DNA of 64,000 nucleotides, from assembly GCA_965112155.1 (NCBI GenBank), contig OZ218105.1; one strand, given 5' to 3'. The notes beneath the pieces are model-generated. The model was not told the DNA's origin. It searched no databases and worked only from the letters and a program-made list of their open reading frames with translations. Position numbers and translations under genes: made by a program. Numbering within the stretch: the first letter of the stretch is position 1; each line of letters begins with the position of its first letter. This stretch comes from Podarcis liolepis. Its lineage: Eukaryota. Shown piece after piece: positions 40,140 through 47,638 of this stretch.

Positions 40140-40830
40140 TGCATCAGTCATTTCCTGCATTCATCCTGCAACTGTTGGCTACTTGTGTATACTCCTCCTC
40201 TGTGATTTCCCCTTTCTTCCATTTCTTATACATGCCCTTCTTAACTTTTAACTCCCCTGTAAGCTCCTTATGCAGCCACACTGGTTTCCTTAGATGCCTC
40301 TCACTTTTCTTTCTTGTTAGAATCGTCTGCATTTGGGCCTTCAATACTTCACCTTTAAGAAACTCCCAAGCATCTTGGACTCCCTTCTCTTTGAGTATTT
40401 CTGACAATGGGTTCTCCTTTAGCTTTTTGAAACTGGCCTTCTTAAAGACCAGTGTGCATGTCTCACTGTACTGAGCTTTCCCATGGCTCTGTCCCATGAA
40501 ACCCAGGAGGGCATGATCACTTCCTCCCAAGGTTCCCAGTACTTCCACTTGGTTGATGAGTTCCTCCCTGATGGCAAGGACCAGGTTCAAGAAAGATAAA
40601 CCCCTTGATGCTTCTTCCACCTTATGGGAAATGAAATTGTCAGAGAGGTAGCAGAGGATTTTGTTGCTCCTTACATTCTTGGCAGAGTTTGAGTTCCAAC
40701 AGATAATCAGGGTAGTTGAAGTCTCCCATGACGCCTATATCTCTCCTTTTTGTTTGGTAATCTGCTCTAGGAATGCATCGTCCAAGTCTTCAATCAGTCT
40801 TGGAGGTCTGGATCCTCCATCACTGCTCCT
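40140..40830 (-). pseudogene. CR1 LINE ORF2 endonuclease/linker fragment
   Basis: MGDFNYP..., LNLVL..REELI..VEV.GTLGGSDH and KPVWL..EL...LK.KK.MYKKWK.G motifs, with frameshifts. Confidence 0.85.
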
Positions 40831-41016: not shown

Positions 41017-41808
41017 TGTCAGAGCTGCTTGAAGATCCTAGCTCACAGAGGATCACGCTAGCCAGCGGTCATTAAGTAAAAGTCTTTATTGAATTACAGT
41101 TTCCATTCTCACGCTGCTGCGCGCAACTCTACGCCTAGTAGCTAGGTCGGCGAAGCTCCGTCTGAGTCTCCGCCCTGTGTGCACCAACTTAATATCCTAG
41201 CCTTGCTCCACCTTTTCCTCCTGACTGTCCTCCTCTGGGTCCCTCTACCCCCCGGGGCTTCTTCCTTCCGGGATTCTTCTGACGCTGACCCAGACCCTCC
41301 TGCCTCCTTGCGCCGGGCTTTAGGACCTGGCTCTCTTTCGGGGCTGCTTACTGCGCCGCCTTCCTCTGCATTTGAACTTGGCGCGCGCGCCCAACCTTCC
41401 ACTTTCCTCTCAACCGTTTCTTCGCTCCCCGATGGAGGTGTGGCCATCCCCGACTCATGTCCTCCCTCCTGTGGAGGTGTGGCCACTCCTGACTCATGTC
41501 CTCCCTCCTGTGGTGAGCTGCCAGCGCTTCCCCCCTGGCTCCCTTCCTCTTCCCTGCTTCCTGGCGGTGACGCTGGTCCCGATTTCCAGCTGCTCCCCCC
41601 TGAGTCCTCTCTGGCTCTGTCTTCCTGGGGTGCCCCCCTAGACTCCCCCCTTGCCCTCGCCACTGGTGCTCCTTTCTGTGAATCCTCTGATTCACTGGAA
41701 AGACTAGGAGATCTCGGGTCGTCGTCGTCACTCATCTTTTCTTCTGCCTCCTCCCCTTCGCTCTCTGTTTCCTCCCTTGCCCGTGCTTCTGCTCCTAAAC
41801 CCCTGACA
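41017..41808 (-). repeat. 3' LTR
   Basis: Copy of the 5' LTR, preceded on the minus strand by the polypurine tract. AATAAA at 41090-41085. Confidence 0.97.
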
Positions 41809-44800
41809 TCCATCCCCCCCTCGAAGCCCCCCATTCCCCCCTCCCCTCCTTCCGGTGCTGGAGCTGGGGGCTGCTGTTGCAAAGGGACGAACGTCAGGTA
41901 TCGGTCGCTTCCCGTGGCAGGCCTCCATCTGAAGTCTCCCGGGTCTTCCTCCCCGCTCTCGTCGACGACAGTCACCTCCGCTTCCATCTCTGTGCCGCCG
42001 TGCTCGAAACCAGGGTCGTCCCCGAAAACGTCCATGTCCGTCTCTCCCTCACTTCCTCCTGTCGGTGTTGCTCGTCCTGGGCCTTCCAGCCACCGTCTGC
42101 GCCACTGCTCCTCTGGCCTATCGTCCCACCAATACGAGGGTTCTGATGCAGATCCCGAGGGTGACCCCTCCGGGGAACGGACGTCTTGTGTCGGGTCCTC
42201 GTCCGAGTCGAACCCCCGGAAAGTGCTGGCCGAAAGTGTGGGCGTGAAAAGCCAGTCGTCAAAATATTCTGCTGGCATAGGTCTATGGGGAAAGAGGGCA
42301 TGAAACTCGTCTTTGAGGAGAGGTTCGTCCAAGGCGTAGCCCGGCACCCAGCTGTTCGCACTGGCCGGGGTGCCCTCCTTGGCGAGAAAGTATTCTACCC
42401 CCTCTTCCCCCCATCTGGAGTCCAAAATCTCAGTGACTTCGTTGATGCGCTCCTTCTGTGCCACTTCCGCGTGCCCTGTTCTGTCTCTGACCGGACTCGG
42501 CGCTGTTCCGGGTTCCTGGAACCTGTGCGGTGCCTTGTAGGGAGTGAGCACCGATCTGTGGAATACCGGATGCATTCTGGAACCCTCCGGAAGTGCCAGT
42601 CTGAAAGCTACCGGGTTGACCTGCTCTTCGACTTGGTAGGGCCCCAGTTGCTTATGCCCTAGTTTCTTCTTGGCCAACGACCTGGCCGGCACTGCGTGGG
42701 CTGCTAACCAAACCCAGTCTCCCACGTGGAGCTCTTCTCCAACCCTTCTGTGCTTGTCTGCTTGTACCTTGTATGCGTGCTTGGCCAGCTCCAGGCGGCG
42801 CCTCAGCTGATCGTGGACCTCCTGCAGCTCCGACGCGAACGCATCTGCTGTCTGCGGCTCCCCCTCCCCCATTCTTTCCAGTCCCGGGAAGGTTCTGGGG
42901 TGCCTCCCGTTGTTGGCGAAGAACGGCGTGACCCCCGTGGACACGTGCTTCGTGTTGTTGTAGGCGAACTCGGCAAGCGGTAGGTAATCCACCCACGTCG
43001 CAGGCTGTTGATTTGCATAACATCTCAGGTACTGCTGCATGATGGCATTGACCCGCTCCGCTTGCCCGTTGGTCTGCGGGTGTCTTGCCGACGCCAGGTT
43101 GATCTTGACGTTCAGGAAGCCCATCAGCTTCTGCCAGAAATTCGAGATGAACTGCCGCCCCCGGTCGGACAGAATAGACCGTGGCAGACCGTGAACCTTG
43201 AACACGTGGTCTATGAACAGTTTGGCGGTTTGCTCCGCCGTGGCCACCTTCGCACACGGAATGAAATGCGCCATCTTGGAAAACAGGTCCACCACCACCA
43301 GCACTGCCGTCTTGCCCCTTGAGCTGGGCAGATCCGTGACAAAGTCCAGGGCCACTCTCTCCCATGGTTCGAACGGTGTTTGCAGCGGTTCCAACAGTCC
43401 GGCCGGCGGTTTGTGCACTGGTTTGGCCCTCTGGCAGGTGTCGCACCTCGCCACGTAGTCTGCGACCTCCCCTCTCATTCCAGGCCACCAGAAATCCCTG
43501 GCTACTAATTCCACCGTCTTCTCCTTGCCAAAGTGCCCGGCCGTGGGCGCGTCGTGCAGCTGCTGCAGCACCTTGGCTCGAAGTTCGTCTCCCGGCACGT
43601 AGATGGCCCCTTTTCGGATGAGCAATCCATCTCGTAGCCGGAAACCGTCGGCCGCTGCCTTGCCCCTTTGCACCTCTGCCATCTTTGCTTGTGCGAAGGA
43701 GTCCTCCTGCAACGCACGTCGCACCGCCTCTAGGTCCACGGTCGCCGCGGCGCACGCCCACACTGCTGGTGCGAAGATGTGCATGGCGGCCGCTGGTGTT
43801 GCGTCCTCCAGATACTGTGGCTTACGGGAGAGGGCGTCTGCCATGATGTTGGTGTCCCCCGGGACATACTCTATTCGGAAGTCGAAGTTTGCAAAGAACT
43901 CAGCCCAACGTATCTGCCTCTGGTTCAGGAACTGTGCCGTGCGCCAGTGCTCTAGATTCTTGTGGTCCGTGCAAACCTGCACCGTGTGCTTGGCGCCGAT
44001 CAGAAAGTGCCTCCACGCCTTGAACGCTGCGTGAATGGCCAGCAACTCCCTGTCCCAGATGGTGTAGTTCTGTTCGGACTTGCTGAGCTTCCTGGAGTAA
44101 AACGCTCCCGGTCGCCACACCCCCTGCGGGTCTTTCTGCAACAGGACCGCCCCCACGGCTCTGTCCGAGGCGTCTGTCTCCACCCTCATCGGCTTGCTGG
44201 GGTTGACATGAAGCAGCTGCTCTTCCGACGCGAAGAGACGCTTGAGTGCCTGAAAGGACTGCTCCGCCTGCGCTGTCCAAACGAACTTCTTCTTCTTGGA
44301 GCTAAGCGTGTCAGTGATGGCCGCTGTCTGCATCGCGAAGCCCTTGATAAACTTGCGATAGAAGTTCGCAAAGCCGACAAACCGTTGGACCTCCTTCCGG
44401 TTGCGCGGACTCTTCCAATCCAACACCGCTCGAACCTTGGCGCTGTCCATGGCGAGCCCCTTGTCAGACAGCTTGTAGCCCAGAAAATCCACCTCCGGCA
44501 CGTCAAATTGGCACTTCTCCAGCTTGGCGTAGAGCCTATGTTGCTTTAGCCTGCTCAGCACTTCCTTGACGTGTCCGTCATGCTCCTGCTGCGACTCCGA
44601 AAAGACCAGGATGTCATCTAAGAAACAGACGCACGTCTTGTAGAGAAGTCCCGCCAACACGTGATGCATAAACGCTTGAAAAACGTGGGAGCCATTTTGC
44701 AATCCAAAAGGCATAACTCTATATTCGTAGGTCCCCAGTGGCGTGAACATGGCTGTCTTCCACTCATCTCCTTCCCGCATGCGAATGAGGTTGTACGCCC

Positions 44801-45749
44801 CCCGCAGGTCTAACTTGGTGAACACTTTTCCCTTCCGTACCTTAGCGAGGAGGTCGTCAATACGGGGCATGGGGAAGTCCGATGGCCTAGTCAGACTGTT
44901 CAAAATCCTGTAATCCACTACCAGTCTTTTCTGGGGCGTGTCCCGCTTCTTAACAAAGAATACGGGACTGCCCCCCACTGCCCTGGACTCCCGGATGAAG
45001 CCGCGTTGCAAATTATGGTCAATGAACTCTTTGAGTTCCTGCAGTTCGTCCTCTGACATGGAATACAGTTTCCCTTTAGGCAGCGCCGCCCCCGGCAGCA
45101 GGTCAATTTTGCAGTCATATGGTCTGTGAGGGGGTAGCCTGTCTGCCTCCTTCTCGCAGAAAACTTCCAAAAATTCAGCGTACTTGTGTGGAATCGCTTG
45201 CAGCGTGCCTAGCAGCAGCTGTGACTCCTCTTCCTCTCCTTCCTGCCTGGGCACGATGCAGTGTTCAGCACAAAAGGAAGAGCCGAAGGTCAGCTGCCTC
45301 TGGTACCAAGCCATCGCTGGGCTGTGCTTGTCCAGCCAACTCATGCCCAATACAATGGGCGTGTCAGATAGTCGAGTGACGTTGAAGCTGATGATTTCTC
45401 TGTGATTCCCAAGTCGCATCACCATTGGTGGCGTCTGCTTCACCACTTGCCCCCCGAGCAGCTCCCTGCCATCCACCGTGACAACCTGCAGGGGCAGTGT
45501 GGCCGGCAGCAACTGCACAGCGTGCCTGTCGACAAAGTCCTGCCCTATAAAGTCCGCATTGCTGCCTGAGTCAATGGTGATTGGCACGTCCATGGTGATT
45601 CCATTGGGCAGTTGGAGAGACGCTGTGAGCCTCACTACTGGTTTGGGCGGGAGGGGGTTCACGGGCTGTAAAATCGCTGGGGACTGCGTCACTAACACGT
45701 CTGGCTGGGCCCCAGTGCCTCTTCCTCCAGCCAGACAGCCTCGTTTCCC
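41142..45749 (-). CDS. pol: Pol (protease, RT, RNase H, integrase, chromodomain, long acidic tail), expressed as an approximately 1871-aa Gag-Pol by -1 frameshift
   Basis: Uninterrupted ORF (track 41142..45827). Protease IDSGS. RT RLVVDYR, KLDLRGAY, MPFGL, FLDD. RNase H ETDAS, ELLAI, TDHKNL, ADALSR. Integrase H-X6-H...CDTC, LDF, SDRG, QAERVN and GPY motif. Chromodomain-like EVTEILDSR...EYF...NSWVP. Confidence 0.96.
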   Translation of the reverse strand, partial: GKRGCLAGGRGTGAQPDVLVTQSPAILQPVNPLPPKPVVRLTASLQLPNGITMDVPITIDSGSNADFIGQDFVDRHAVQLLPATLPLQVVTVDGRELLGGQVVKQTPPMVMRLGNHREIISFNVTRLSDTPIVLGMSWLDKHSPAMAWYQRQLTFGSSFCAEHCIVPRQEGEEEESQLLLGTLQAIPHKYAEFLEVFCEKEADRLPPHRPYDCKIDLLPGAALPKGKLYSMSEDELQELKEFIDHNLQRGFIRESRAVGGSPVFFVKKRDTPQKRLVVDYRILNSLTRPSDFPMPRIDDLLAKVRKGKVFTKLDLRGAYNLIRMREGDEWKTAMFTPLGTYEYRVMPFGLQNGSHVFQAFMHHVLAGLLYKTCVCFLDDILVFSESQQEHDGHVKEVLSRLKQHRLYAKLEKCQFDVPEVDFLGYKLSDKGLAMDSAKVRAVLDWKSPRNRKEVQRFVGFANFYRKFIKGFAMQTAAITDTLSSKKKKFVWTAQAEQSFQALKRLFASEEQLLHVNPSKPMRVETDASDRAVGAVLLQKDPQGVWRPGAFYSRKLSKSEQNYTIWDRELLAIHAAFKAWRHFLIGAKHTVQVCTDHKNLEHWRTAQFLNQRQIRWAEFFANFDFRIEYVPGDTNIMADALSRKPQYLEDATPAAAMHIFAPAVWACAAATVDLEAVRRALQEDSFAQAKMAEVQRGKAAADGFRLRDGLLIRKGAIYVPGDELRAKVLQQLHDAPTAGHFGKEKTVELVARDFWWPGMRGEVADYVARCDTCQRAKPVHKPPAGLLEPLQTPFEPWERVALDFVTDLPSSRGKTAVLVVVDLFSKMAHFIPCAKVATAEQTAKLFIDHVFKVHGLPRSILSDRGRQFISNFWQKLMGFLNVKINLASARHPQTNGQAERVNAIMQQYLRCYANQQPATWVDYLPLAEFAYNNTKHVSTGVTPFFANNGRHPRTFPGLERMGEGEPQTADAFASELQEVHDQLRRRLELAKHAYKVQADKHRRVGEELHVGDWVWLAAHAVPARSLAKKKLGHKQLGPYQVEEQVNPVAFRLALPEGSRMHPVFHRSVLTPYKAPHRFQEPGTAPSPVRDRTGHAEVAQKERINEVTEILDSRWGEEGVEYFLAKEGTPASANSWVPGYALDEPLLKDEFHALFPHRPMPAEYFDDWLFTPTLSASTFRGFDSDEDPTQDVRSPEGSPSGSASEPSYWWDDRPEEQWRRRWLEGPGRATPTGGSEGETDMDVFGDDPGFEHGGTEMEAEVTVVDESGEEDPGDFRWRPATGSDRYLTFVPLQQQPPAPAPEGGEGGMGGFEGGMDVRGLGAEARAREETESEGEEAEEKMSDDDDPRSPSLSSESEDSQKGAPVARARGESRGAPQEDRAREDSGGSSWKSGPASPPGSREEEGSQGGSAGSSPQEGGHESGVATPPQEGGHESGMATPPSGSEETVERKVEGWARAPSSNAEEGGAVSSPEREPGPKARRKEAGGSGSASEESRKEEAPGGRGTQRRTVRRKRWSKARILSWCTQGGDSDGASPT
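41809..41823 (-). promoter_or_regulatory. Polypurine tract
   Basis: Minus strand GAGGGGGGGATGGA lies immediately before the TGTCAG of the 3' LTR. Confidence 0.9.
45677..45749 (-). promoter_or_regulatory. -1 ribosomal frameshift signal: G GGA AAC slippery heptamer plus predicted H-type pseudoknot
   Basis: GGGAAAC at 45749-45743 is in the gag frame (Q-G-N), and the -1 frame gives G-K-R-G-C-L of pol. 6-nt spacer. Perfect 10-bp stem GTCTGGCTGG/CCAGCCAGAC (45736-45727 with 45708-45699). Loop CTGGGG can pair with downstream CCCCAG (45682-45677). Confidence 0.9.
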
Positions 45750-46756
45750 TGCTGTGGTCCTCCTTGCTGTGTTGCTGCAGTCACCATTGCTGAGGCTGCA
45801 GTGAGCTTGTGGGGCCTCTGGGGACACTCTTTCGCCATATGCCCTGGCTCCTCACAGACGTAACACTTCCTGTTCCCTCTAGGAGGCTTCGCTTTCACTG
45901 CTGCTGGTGCTAGGGCTCTGGTTGCTGACTGAGCCCTTGCACCTCCCACCTCCATAGGTTCGGCTCCTCCTCCTGGCGGAGGCGTGGATTGCGCCCGCGC
46001 TGCTTCCCTGGGAAAGAAGGAGGGGCCCCCGGCTGGTTCGCGCCCTCCACGCCCTTCGTCCCTGTTCCACGGACGTCCTTCCAGCCTCACCCCCACTGCC
46101 AGTGCCCTCTGAACGACCTCCTGGGTGGTTCGGGGTCTCTCCCCCCTGGCGATCTCATCTTTAATCGAGTTATGCAGCCCCTCCCAAAAGAGGTCTCTTA
46201 CAGGAGCCGAATCTCTGTCCCATTCCAGGGCACTGACCAAGGCGAAAAAGCGGGCATGGTACTGCCTGACGCTGGCCCTCCCTTGTCTCAGCCCATGCAC
46301 CTCCTTCCGTGCAAGATCCACGTCAATACTTGATAAAAAACACCCATCCATCGCTTTAATAAAGGCATCTGCATTCTGTAGCGCCGGATCCTTATCTCTC
46401 CATAAATTGCGTAGCCATGCTCTCGCATCCCCATGCAGATGGGACATGATGAACCCCACTCTCTCTTGTTCATCTCTAAAGTCTTTATGCAGCAGTTGCA
46501 GTGCGCACAGTACGTCGGCTCTAAAGTTGGGATACTGTTGCAGGTTCCCATCGAAGTGAGAGACCAGCCCGCCTGTCCGTCTCGCCAACCCAATGCCCTC
46601 CTGCCGGGGTGCCTGCTTTGTCAGCACGTCTAACCTGACCTGGAGATCCCTGCAGGCTGCGGCTGCTTCCTCCTCCCTCTTCCTGGATGCTAGAGCCTCG
46701 GCGTTCAGTTGTGCCACCGCGTTTCTGAGTTCCTCTATCTGCTGCTCAGCCGTCAT
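45692..46756 (-). CDS. gag: Gag (354 aa): N-terminal coiled coil, retrotransposon capsid, CCHC zinc knuckle
   Basis: ATG-initiated ORF. Capsid-like motifs FDGN..., 'VGFIMSHLHGDARAW', 'LRQGRASVRQY..F', 'FWEGLHNSIKDE'. 'EPMEVG' motif and CX2CX4HX4C knuckle CYVCEEPGHMAKEC, as in sushi/PEG10-type Gag. Confidence 0.95.
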   Translation of the reverse strand: MTAEQQIEELRNAVAQLNAEALASRKREEEAAAACRDLQVRLDVLTKQAPRQEGIGLARRTGGLVSHFDGNLQQYPNFRADVLCALQLLHKDFRDEQERVGFIMSHLHGDARAWLRNLWRDKDPALQNADAFIKAMDGCFLSSIDVDLARKEVHGLRQGRASVRQYHARFFALVSALEWDRDSAPVRDLFWEGLHNSIKDEIARGERPRTTQEVVQRALAVGVRLEGRPWNRDEGRGGREPAGGPSFFPREAARAQSTPPPGGGAEPMEVGGARAQSATRALAPAAVKAKPPRGNRKCYVCEEPGHMAKECPQRPHKLTAASAMVTAATQQGGPQQGNEAVWLEEEALGPSQTC

Positions 46757-46833
46757 GTCGTCTGCCGTTCGTGAGCTTGCTAGTAGGCACCTGTGTCTCT
46801 CCCCTCCTCGAGGCTGTAGATGCCCACAAGTGG

Positions 46834-46844
46834 AGACGGAGCTT
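46834..46844 (-). promoter_or_regulatory. Non-tRNA primer-binding site (self-priming type)
   Basis: 2 nt after the 5' LTR the minus strand reads AAGCTCCGTCT, with no TGG. This is the exact complement of AGACGGAGCTT at 46993-46983 inside the LTR. Confidence 0.85.
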
Positions 46845-46846
46845 AC

Positions 46847-47638
46847 TGTCAGAGCTGCTTGAAGATCCTAGCTCACAGAGGATCACGCTAGCCAGCGGTC
46901 ATTAAGTAAAAGTCTTTATTGAATTACAGTTTCCATTCTCACGCTGCTGCGCGCAACTCTACGCCTAGTAGCTAGGTCGGCGAAGCTCCGTCTGAGTCTC
47001 CGCCCTGTGTGCACCAACTTAATATCCTAGCCTTGCTCCACCTTTTCCTCCTGACTGTCCTCCTCTGGGTCCCTCTACCCCCCGGGGCTTCTTCCTTCCG
47101 GGATTCTTCTGACGCTGACCCAGACCCTCCTGCCTCCTTGCGCCGGGCTTTAGGACCTGGCTCTCTTTCGGGGCTGCTTACTGCGCCGCCTTCCTCTGCA
47201 TTTGAACTTGGCGCGCGCGCCCAACCTTCCACTTTCCTCTCAACCGTTTCTTCGCTCCCCGATGGAGGTGTGGCCATCCCCGACTCATGTCCTCCCTCCT
47301 GTGGAGGTGTGGCCACTCCTGACTCATGTCCTCCCTCCTGTGGTGAGCTGCCAGCGCTTCCCCCCTGGCTCCCTTCCTCTTCCCTGCTTCCTGGCGGTGA
47401 CGCTGGTCCCGATTTCCAGCTGCTCCCCCCTGAGTCCTCTCTGGCTCTGTCTTCCTGGGGTGCCCCCCTAGACTCCCCCCTTGCCCTCGCCACTGGTGCT
47501 CCTTTCTGTGAATCCTCTGATTCACTGGAAAGACTAGGAGATCTCGGGTCGTCGTCGTCACTCATCTTTTCTTCTGCCTCCTCCCCTTCGCTCTCTGTTT
47601 CCTCCCTTGCCCGTGCTTCTGCTCCTAAACCCCTGACA
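46847..47638 (-). repeat. 5' LTR (U3 about 47638-46994; R/U5 about 46993-46847)
   Basis: Repeat of 41017-41808 at offset 5830. TG...CA ends with a 6-bp terminal inverted repeat. TATA-like ATATTAA at 47025-47019 and AATAAA at 46920-46915 (minus strand). Confidence 0.97.

What the first reader, a model, noticed from the sequence alone, without database searches (positions are those of the whole stretch)
46834..46993. tRNA-independent self-priming architecture (Tf1-like) with a nested R/U5 fold
Seen: the PBS position has AAGCTCCGTCT instead of TGG. Its perfect 11-nt complement lies in the LTR at 46993-46983, 26-32 nt downstream of a TATA-like ATATTAA (47025-47019), where transcription should start. 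Between the two, R AGAGUUGC (46960-46953) can pair with U5 GCAGCUCU (46858-46851). Local hairpins are CCUAG-cua-CUAGG and GAUCCU...AGGAUC. Established: S. pombe Tf1 primes from the first 11 nt of its own mRNA, and the same has been proposed for sushi-group elements. Inference: a lizard element uses this mechanism. The 3' LTR copy of the primer also encodes part of the last Pol residues (DGASPT), so it would be promoter-proximal, primer and coding at once.
Basis: partly seen in the sequence, partly recalled or inferred. Interest (0 to 1): 0.75.

Follow-up and report, generated by a model that had tools for sequence, protein, structure and literature searches.

The report
Self-priming lizard retrotransposon, protein-coding primer
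A young, very abundant lizard jumping gene has, where a borrowed tRNA normally binds, 11 letters that match its own predicted RNA start and change in step with it, so it likely primes its own DNA copying as yeast Tf1 does, and those same letters also lie in the conserved coding tail of its integrase.

Summary
Observation confirmed; self-priming reading supported. This is a 6,622-bp Ty3/gypsy chromovirus with identical 792-bp LTRs and about 1,300 junction copies. The PBS has no TGG and is the exact complement of LTR 46993-46983.

Evidence: 28 of 30 copies with a changed PBS base carry the matching LTR change, against 1 of 98 ordinary copies (probably one event). Six other lineages in the genome each match their own LTR with different letters. 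The R/U5 duplex and local helices covary.

Two additions. (1) Directly 3' of the PBS is a near-fixed C (95 of 98), then a hypervariable base, about 130 times background in near-identical copies. This is likely the trace of reverse transcriptase copying the primer's cap and adding untemplated bases, which would place the start at 46993. (2) The Pol frame runs 222 codons through U3 and the primer under purifying selection (dN/dS 0.13-0.28), and also does so in sister families.

Against: the TATA-like site is not conserved, Tf1's third duplex was not found, and no RNA 5' end could be mapped. Self-priming is already proposed for vertebrate Tf1/sushi elements. The scan noted it earlier only in other groups, in other genomes.

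The parts
41017..47638 (-). Whole LTR retrotransposon, 6,622 bp, 5-bp target-site duplication ATTGC
46847..47638 (-). 5' LTR, 792 bp, TG...CA, identical to the 3' LTR
41017..41808 (-). 3' LTR; its first 667 bases continue the Pol frame
47019..47025 (-). ATATTAA, TATA-like by position; lies in the conserved I-L-S-W codons and is not conserved as a TATA box
46983..46993 (-). Predicted 11-nt self-primer; predicted transcription start at A46993
   Evidence: start inferred
46964..46976 (-). R hairpin; base supported by one compensatory pair, upper pairs variable; the Pol stop codon lies in its 5' arm
46953..46960 (-). R arm of the R/U5 duplex
   Evidence: 99% of cells paired; one pair occurs as U-G, C-G and U-A
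46885..46952 (-).
46864..46884 (-). U5 hairpin, 6 bp, 100% of cells paired, one double-sided change
46851..46858 (-). U5 arm of the R/U5 duplex
46845..46846 (-). 2-nt spacer GT between the LTR's terminal CA and the PBS; sister families also have a short spacer (mostly GC)
46834..46844 (-). Primer-binding site, exact complement of 46993-46983, no TGG
46832..46833 (-). Near-fixed C (46833) and hypervariable base (46832): likely cap copy and untemplated addition
   Evidence: pattern shown, cause inferred
46783..46827 (-). Leader hairpin, predicted with different letters in every subfamily folded
45692..46756 (-). gag, 354 aa from the first ATG: Ty3-type capsid and CCHC knuckle
45743..45749 (-). 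GGGAAAC slippery heptamer in the gag/pol overlap, followed by a predicted stem (likely -1 frameshift)
41142..45851 (-). pol frame, 1,569 codons: protease, RT, RNase H, integrase, SH3, degenerate chromodomain, long tail
42300..42440 (-). Weak chromodomain match (E 0.031, below Pfam's cut-off)
41142..41808 (-). LTR-encoded Pol tail (221 residues plus stop) running through U3 and the primer copy
41809..41820 (-). Polypurine tract before the 3' LTR

Best explanation
This recently multiplied Ty3/gypsy chromovirus likely primes reverse transcription with the first 11 bases of its own RNA, which are the exact complement of its PBS and change in step with it. Steps: (1) transcription likely starts at A46993 (inferred); (2) the R/U5 duplex, inner helix and hairpins fold the leader so that bases 1-11 meet the PBS (predicted, supported by covariation); (3) RNase H would cut after base 11, as shown for Tf1 (by analogy, untested); (4) minus-strand synthesis would start across the GT spacer; (5) plus-strand synthesis would copy the retained primer to its 5' end, write C opposite the cap and add an untemplated base, which is fixed at the second strand transfer. 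Step 5 would explain both the hotspot beside the PBS and how an LTR change is passed on to the PBS (pattern shown, cause inferred). In the 3' LTR the same bases lie in the Pol frame, which is under purifying selection (shown).
For: Exact 11-nt complement, rare by shuffling. 1,227 of 1,298 junction copies keep GT plus PBS bases 1-10 exactly; control patterns 0. 28 of 30 copies with PBS A>G at base 2 have the matching LTR T>C; 1 of 98 ordinary copies does. Seven lineages: each PBS matches its own LTR over 9-11 bases and the other LTRs over 4-8; 18 of 23 further elements with an LTR pair have a perfect match of 9 or more bases. Named structure: 95.5% of cells paired, 9 pairs with double-sided changes against 4.5 +/- 0.8 shuffled, 31-45% paired when slid. 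Hotspot at the duplex end: base 11 T88/C7/A3 with no copy changed at the matching LTR base, next base C95/G3, next C52/A31/T10/G5; in the 32 youngest copies that last base differs in 41% of pairs against 0.3% elsewhere. The same positions vary in contigs of other organisms while primer and PBS bases 1-10 show no listed change. C follows the duplex in 100 of 100 listed family-B copies and 17 of 20 sister-family elements, although the LTR base before the primer predicts another letter. Tf1 keeps a copied PBS at the cDNA end and its RT adds untemplated bases (PMC11042837, passages).
Against: No RNA 5' end was mapped. The compensated subfamily is probably one event, and the aligned copies are related, so the counts are not independent. 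Some variant copies are not compensated (L272, L278, L291, L241; family B L092, L093, L295, L296). One measure did not exceed the shuffles (pair types 23 against 25.1). Fold energy is not exceptional. No conserved leader-to-LTR duplex, the third helix of the Tf1 'pretzel', was found. The TATA-like site is not conserved. In 3 of 20 sister elements the base after the perfect duplex is not C. In this family the fixed C could also pair with an upstream GAGAC repeat. The hotspot is weaker in family B (9 of 100).
Confidence: 0.9

Rival explanations
1. Priming uses the same 11 bases but in trans: a second genomic RNA or a short transcript from another LTR supplies the primer, and the intramolecular fold is secondary.
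For: There are well over a thousand LTR copies with the same sequence. A few copies have a mismatched primer and PBS.
Against: 28 of 30 PBS-variant copies keep the matching LTR although about 1,200 ordinary copies exist to supply primers. The helices that bring the two sites together covary.
Confidence: 0.06
2. A host tRNA, tRNA half or other small RNA is the primer, and the LTR match is incidental.
For: The tRNA comparison covered only 34 gene calls in 13 anticodon classes, so not every host tRNA was excluded directly.
Against: No TGG at the PBS start. Best 3'-anchored match 6 of 14 bases. PBS letters differ wholly between lineages yet follow each element's own LTR, which a host RNA would not cause.
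Confidence: 0.02
3. The match is a structural stem or a by-product of protein constraint, and the hotspot beside it has another cause.
For: The LTR site is coding and conserved for that reason as well. The variant that spread is synonymous.
Against: Coding constraint cannot act on the non-coding PBS. There is no other candidate primer site. The hotspot begins exactly at the duplex end.
Confidence: 0.02

Closest known systems
Tf1/Tf2 of Schizosaccharomyces pombe (and Tj1 of S. japonicus)
   Same: 11-nt 5' segment complementary to the PBS, no tRNA site, an R/U5 helix beside the PBS, Ty3/gypsy domain order (passages). Tandem copies sharing an LTR occur in both.
   Different: Separate gag and pol frames with a slippery site and a CCHC knuckle, both unlike Tf1. 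No third duplex found. Pol frame runs through the LTR primer copy. Mechanism untested here.
Vertebrate Tf1/sushi group (sushi-ichi, GyDB V-clade; Butler et al. 2001)
   Same: Self-priming 'pretzel' proposed from sequence for vertebrate members (cited). LTR ends fit the published Sushi motifs TGTYANR and CNTNACA (PMC3601003). -1 frameshift architecture. RT-IN relatives carry chromodomains and come from lizards, amphibians, fish and fungi.
   Different: Butler 2001 itself was not read. In the searches made I found no report of compensatory PBS/LTR change, a junction hotspot, or an integrase tail coded through the primer in vertebrate members.
Plant CRM group A chromoviruses
   Same: [quoted passage not shown]
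   Different: tRNA-Met primed. The CR motif was not compared with this tail. Here the frame reaches the primer in R, and a degenerate chromodomain precedes the tail.

Membership tests
Ty3/gypsy (Metaviridae) | gag, then PR-RT-RNase H-IN order; LTRs; target-site duplication | tested here: met
   best solved relative is Ty3 Gag-Pol, E 4e-135
Chromovirus | Chromodomain after the integrase | tested here: inconclusive
   Weak Pfam Chromo match at the expected place, E 0.031, below cut-off; relatives at 64% identity carry PF00385
Tf1/sushi group | PBS complementary to an LTR site rather than to a tRNA | tested here: met
Tf1/sushi group | Duplex between U5 next to the PBS and R | tested here: met
Tf1/sushi group | Third 'pretzel' duplex between PBS-adjacent sequence and the LTR | tested here: inconclusive
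   No conserved leader-to-LTR duplex in 10 copies; only a 2-bp pairing of the GT spacer with bases 13-14. Published structure figures were not seen.
Tf1/sushi group | Primer is the capped 5' end of the mRNA | not testable with these tools
   Only contigs were on offer; the DNA hotspot is indirect support
Tf1/sushi group | RNase H cleavage after base 11 and priming from it | not testable with these tools
   Bench result; shown for Tf1 only
Tf1/sushi group | RT-IN phylogeny places it with named members (sushi-ichi, Tf1, Maggy) | not tested
   No named reference sequences were at hand; the tree holds only elements of this genome
Tf1/sushi group (non-yeast members) | -1 frameshift at the gag/pol junction and CCHC motif in Gag | tested here: met
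   Overlapping frames with GGGAAAC and a following stem; zf-CCHC; frameshifting itself not shown

The most novel reading that the evidence does not exclude
A clade of lizard chromoviruses writes a record of its own capped transcription start into each new copy: C for the cap, then an untemplated base, beside the PBS. Thousands of insertions would then form a natural in-vivo readout of self-priming in a vertebrate. The clade also encodes an undescribed integrase tail, ending in a conserved RR(K/R)R-x5-(I/L)L(S/C)W motif, straight through its promoter and primer, so one stretch of DNA is promoter, primer and targeting or nuclear-import module at once.
Probability: 0.5. Interest if true: 0.65.

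Novelty: new variant of a known kind. Interest (0 to 1): 0.47.

Why it matters
In the papers read, self-priming is demonstrated only in fission-yeast Tf1 and is described as implicated or predicted for vertebrate elements. This family supplies natural compensatory variants and a per-insertion hotspot, which is much stronger support than complementarity alone. If the cap reading holds, transcription starts of self-priming elements could be read from genome assemblies, and doubtful cases in other groups could be tested the same way. A tRNA-free PBS should also lie outside silencing by 3' tRNA fragments (inference). The selected 222-codon tail inside the LTR points to an uncharacterised integrase module and adds a coding constraint on the primer.

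Tried and rejected
Transcription start: the run search listed no RNA holder on record and only contigs; laying 4 + 4 runs cannot show a start. This is no evidence on expression.

tRNA priming: 30 loci, 34 ARAGORN calls, 13 anticodon classes; best 3'-anchored match 6 of 14, longest internal match 8 bases in doubtful long calls. The set is incomplete.

TATA box: ATATTAA reads GTATTAA, GTCTTAA, GCATTTA or TTAGTAA in older subfamilies and CTTCTTTG in some sister families, while the encoded residues are kept. My regular expression for it failed and gave nothing.

Third duplex: best leader-to-LTR duplexes were matched by 24-232 of 300 shuffles and moved between copies.

Primer changes being only synonymous: rejected, because sister-family primers differ by both silent and replacement changes.

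Other blanks: Rfam gave 0 matches. The ESM Atlas gave no usable hit for the tail, which shows neither novelty nor absence. The DUF4939 search returned family-B-type loci. The loose pattern returned mostly another repeat and chance hits (control 118 against 336). Earlier findings by sequence: none.

Esnault and Levin 2015 and Atwood-Moore 2006 are not held and Butler 2001 was not read, so prior mention of the cap C or of the coded tail there is not excluded. No supplements were read.

Full report
The element. The finding lies at the 5' LTR/leader junction of a 6,622-bp element on the minus strand (47638-41017). It has two identical 792-bp LTRs, a 5-bp target duplication and a purine tract before the 3' LTR. 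It encodes a Gag with Ty3-type capsid and CCHC knuckle, and a 1,569-codon Pol frame with protease, RT, RNase H, integrase and SH3. A GGGAAAC slippery site lies in the overlap and a weak chromodomain match follows the integrase. Its closest named proteins are labelled as lizard gypsy proteins. The genome holds 1,298 copies of the junction, and 40 of 40 scored hits to a 281-bp probe were identical.

The observation. An 11-base perfect complement arose in 28 of 5,000 shuffles of the LTR and 8 of 5,000 of its last 250 bases. The predicted fold contains the primer/PBS helix, the R/U5 helix and both hairpins, though its energy is ordinary.

Compensation between PBS and LTR. 1,227 of 1,298 copies keep GT plus PBS bases 1-10. 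A search for one variant seen among them, A>G at PBS base 2, gave 30 copies. 28 of these carry the matching T>C in the LTR, which is silent in the Pol frame; 2 keep the old base, giving a U-G pair. Only 1 of 98 ordinary copies has that LTR change. This is probably one lineage, so one event. A single copy with another PBS change (L291) is not compensated. A second family (RT 55% identical) has a different 10-base pair. Its variant copies L031, L044 and L292-L294 are compensated; L092, L093, L295 and L296 are not. Of 40 further loci, 6 had no RT and 11 no LTR pair. 18 of the remaining 23 had a perfect 9-11 base match to their own LTR, 2 more had it with one mismatch or wobble, and 3 had none. 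Across seven lineages, own matches were 9-11 bases and cross matches 4-8.

The fold. On 29 copies chosen for diversity, the structure taken from the window's fold had 95.5% of cells paired and 9 pairs with double-sided changes (shuffles 4.5 +/- 0.8). Slid controls gave 31-45% paired. The count of pair types did not beat the shuffles. One R/U5 pair occurs as U-G, C-G and U-A. RNAalifold found essentially the same helices. Relatedness inflates these numbers. No conserved leader-to-LTR duplex was found; the leader is predicted to form its own hairpin with different letters. The Tf1 three-duplex 'pretzel' is therefore only partly matched.

A hotspot at the duplex end. I examined 98 of the first 100 listed copies, dropping two tandem duplicates. 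PBS base 11 is T88/C7/A3 with no copy changed at the matching LTR base, the next base is C95/G3, and the next is C52/A31/T10/G5. In the 32 youngest copies (0.3% apart) that last base differs in 41% of pairs, including among copies with identical LTRs. The LTR base before the primer is C, which predicts G, not C. The three G cases are what a start one or two bases upstream would give, and the seven C-at-11 cases fit a start one base downstream. C also follows the duplex in 100 of 100 listed family-B copies, with 9 of 100 varying at the next base, and in 17 of 20 sister elements; two others read A then C and one reads T. Contigs of other organisms vary at the same positions. I infer that plus-strand synthesis runs off the primer's capped 5' end. 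Tf1 cDNA keeps a copied PBS and gains untemplated bases (PMC11042837). That RT writes C opposite a cap, and that Ty1 errors cluster at template ends, are recalled and come from no call. The predicted start also fits a pyrimidine-purine initiator (consensus recalled). A caveat specific to this family is an upstream GAGAC repeat that could also pair with the fixed C.

The primer is coding. Pol continues 667 bases into the 3' LTR and stops just after the primer copy. In 12 pairwise comparisons with the window copy, dN/dS over about 200 LTR codons was 0.13-0.28 in the Pol frame and 0.63-1.74 in the other sense frames (not independent). Sister families do the same and share a terminal motif at the same spacing from the primer; family B stops earlier. 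The TATA-like site falls on this motif's codons and is not kept as TATA. The tail matched only 5 proteins, all with the same lizard label, among 8,000 candidates of similar length. Its function is unknown; a nuclear-import or targeting role is my guess, by analogy with plant CRM group A (PMC3059260).

What is known. Self-priming is shown for Tf1 and is described as a common or implicated feature of the Tf1/sushi group, vertebrates included. Papers seen as passages: PMC6317226, PMC3601003, bioRxiv 2022.12.06.519325 (10), PMC11042837, PMC3035444, PMC4600332, PMC7175516, PMC3059260, PMC5341516, PMC7472051. Butler 2001, Lin and Levin 1997 and Atwood-Moore 2006 were seen only as citations. Nine searches listed no paper whose title or abstract start describes the junction hotspot, the compensation or the coded primer in vertebrate elements; the library lacks most subscription papers. 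Earlier scan notes on self-priming concern BEL/Pao and copia elements in other genomes and did not change my reading.

Verdict. The feature is real and self-priming is likely (0.9). The cap reading of the hotspot is about 0.65. Formal Tf1/sushi membership is likely but was not tested with named references. The mechanism is expected for the group. The natural compensation, the per-insertion hotspot and the selected reading frame through the primer make it a variant worth a specialist's look. Interest 0.47.

Noticed in passing
window 41142-41230; L346, L347, L350, L351: Sister families (RT about 69% identical) also run Pol through their primer and share the tail motif RR(K/R)R-x5-(I/L)L(S/C)W. 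The primer starts at the third base of the seventh codon after the W in each (read).
   Followed up: partly
L252, L255 (family B): A second young family with one 1,564-aa frame that runs about 350 bases into the 3' LTR and stops before its TATA-like site. Its tail has RRSARL, which I recall as the core of the HMGN nucleosome-binding motif (recalled, untested).
   Followed up: partly
G000:C1: 19 of 61 listed copies on this 139.4-Mb contig lie in its first 2.1 Mb or last 1.1 Mb; clusters at contig ends also appear on C2-C4. Targeting or accumulation was not resolved.
   Followed up: no
L302-L304 (G000:C1 near 139.39 Mb): Tandem array of three internal regions sharing four identical LTRs, like the single-LTR tandems described for Tf1/Tf2.
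   Followed up: partly
window 47224-47378 and 41394-41548: 39-bp in-frame tandem repeat inside U3; this copy's LTR is about 36 bases longer than those of older subfamilies.
   Followed up: no
window 41146-42303 (+): 385-codon antisense open frame mirroring the Pol tail; its dN/dS of 0.29-0.49 is expected from shared third positions.
   Followed up: partly
L181-L248: 23 of 64 copies with a scored LTR pair have identical LTRs and 57 of 64 are at least 99.5% identical (68 examined): a very recent burst.
   Followed up: yes
G000:C20: A large share of the 150 top SH3_Tf2-1 hits, mostly older sister-family copies, lie on this one contig.
   Followed up: no
window 40144-40734 (-): 196-codon frame that looks like a non-LTR (LINE-type) fragment beside the insertion (resemblance recalled).
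   Followed up: no
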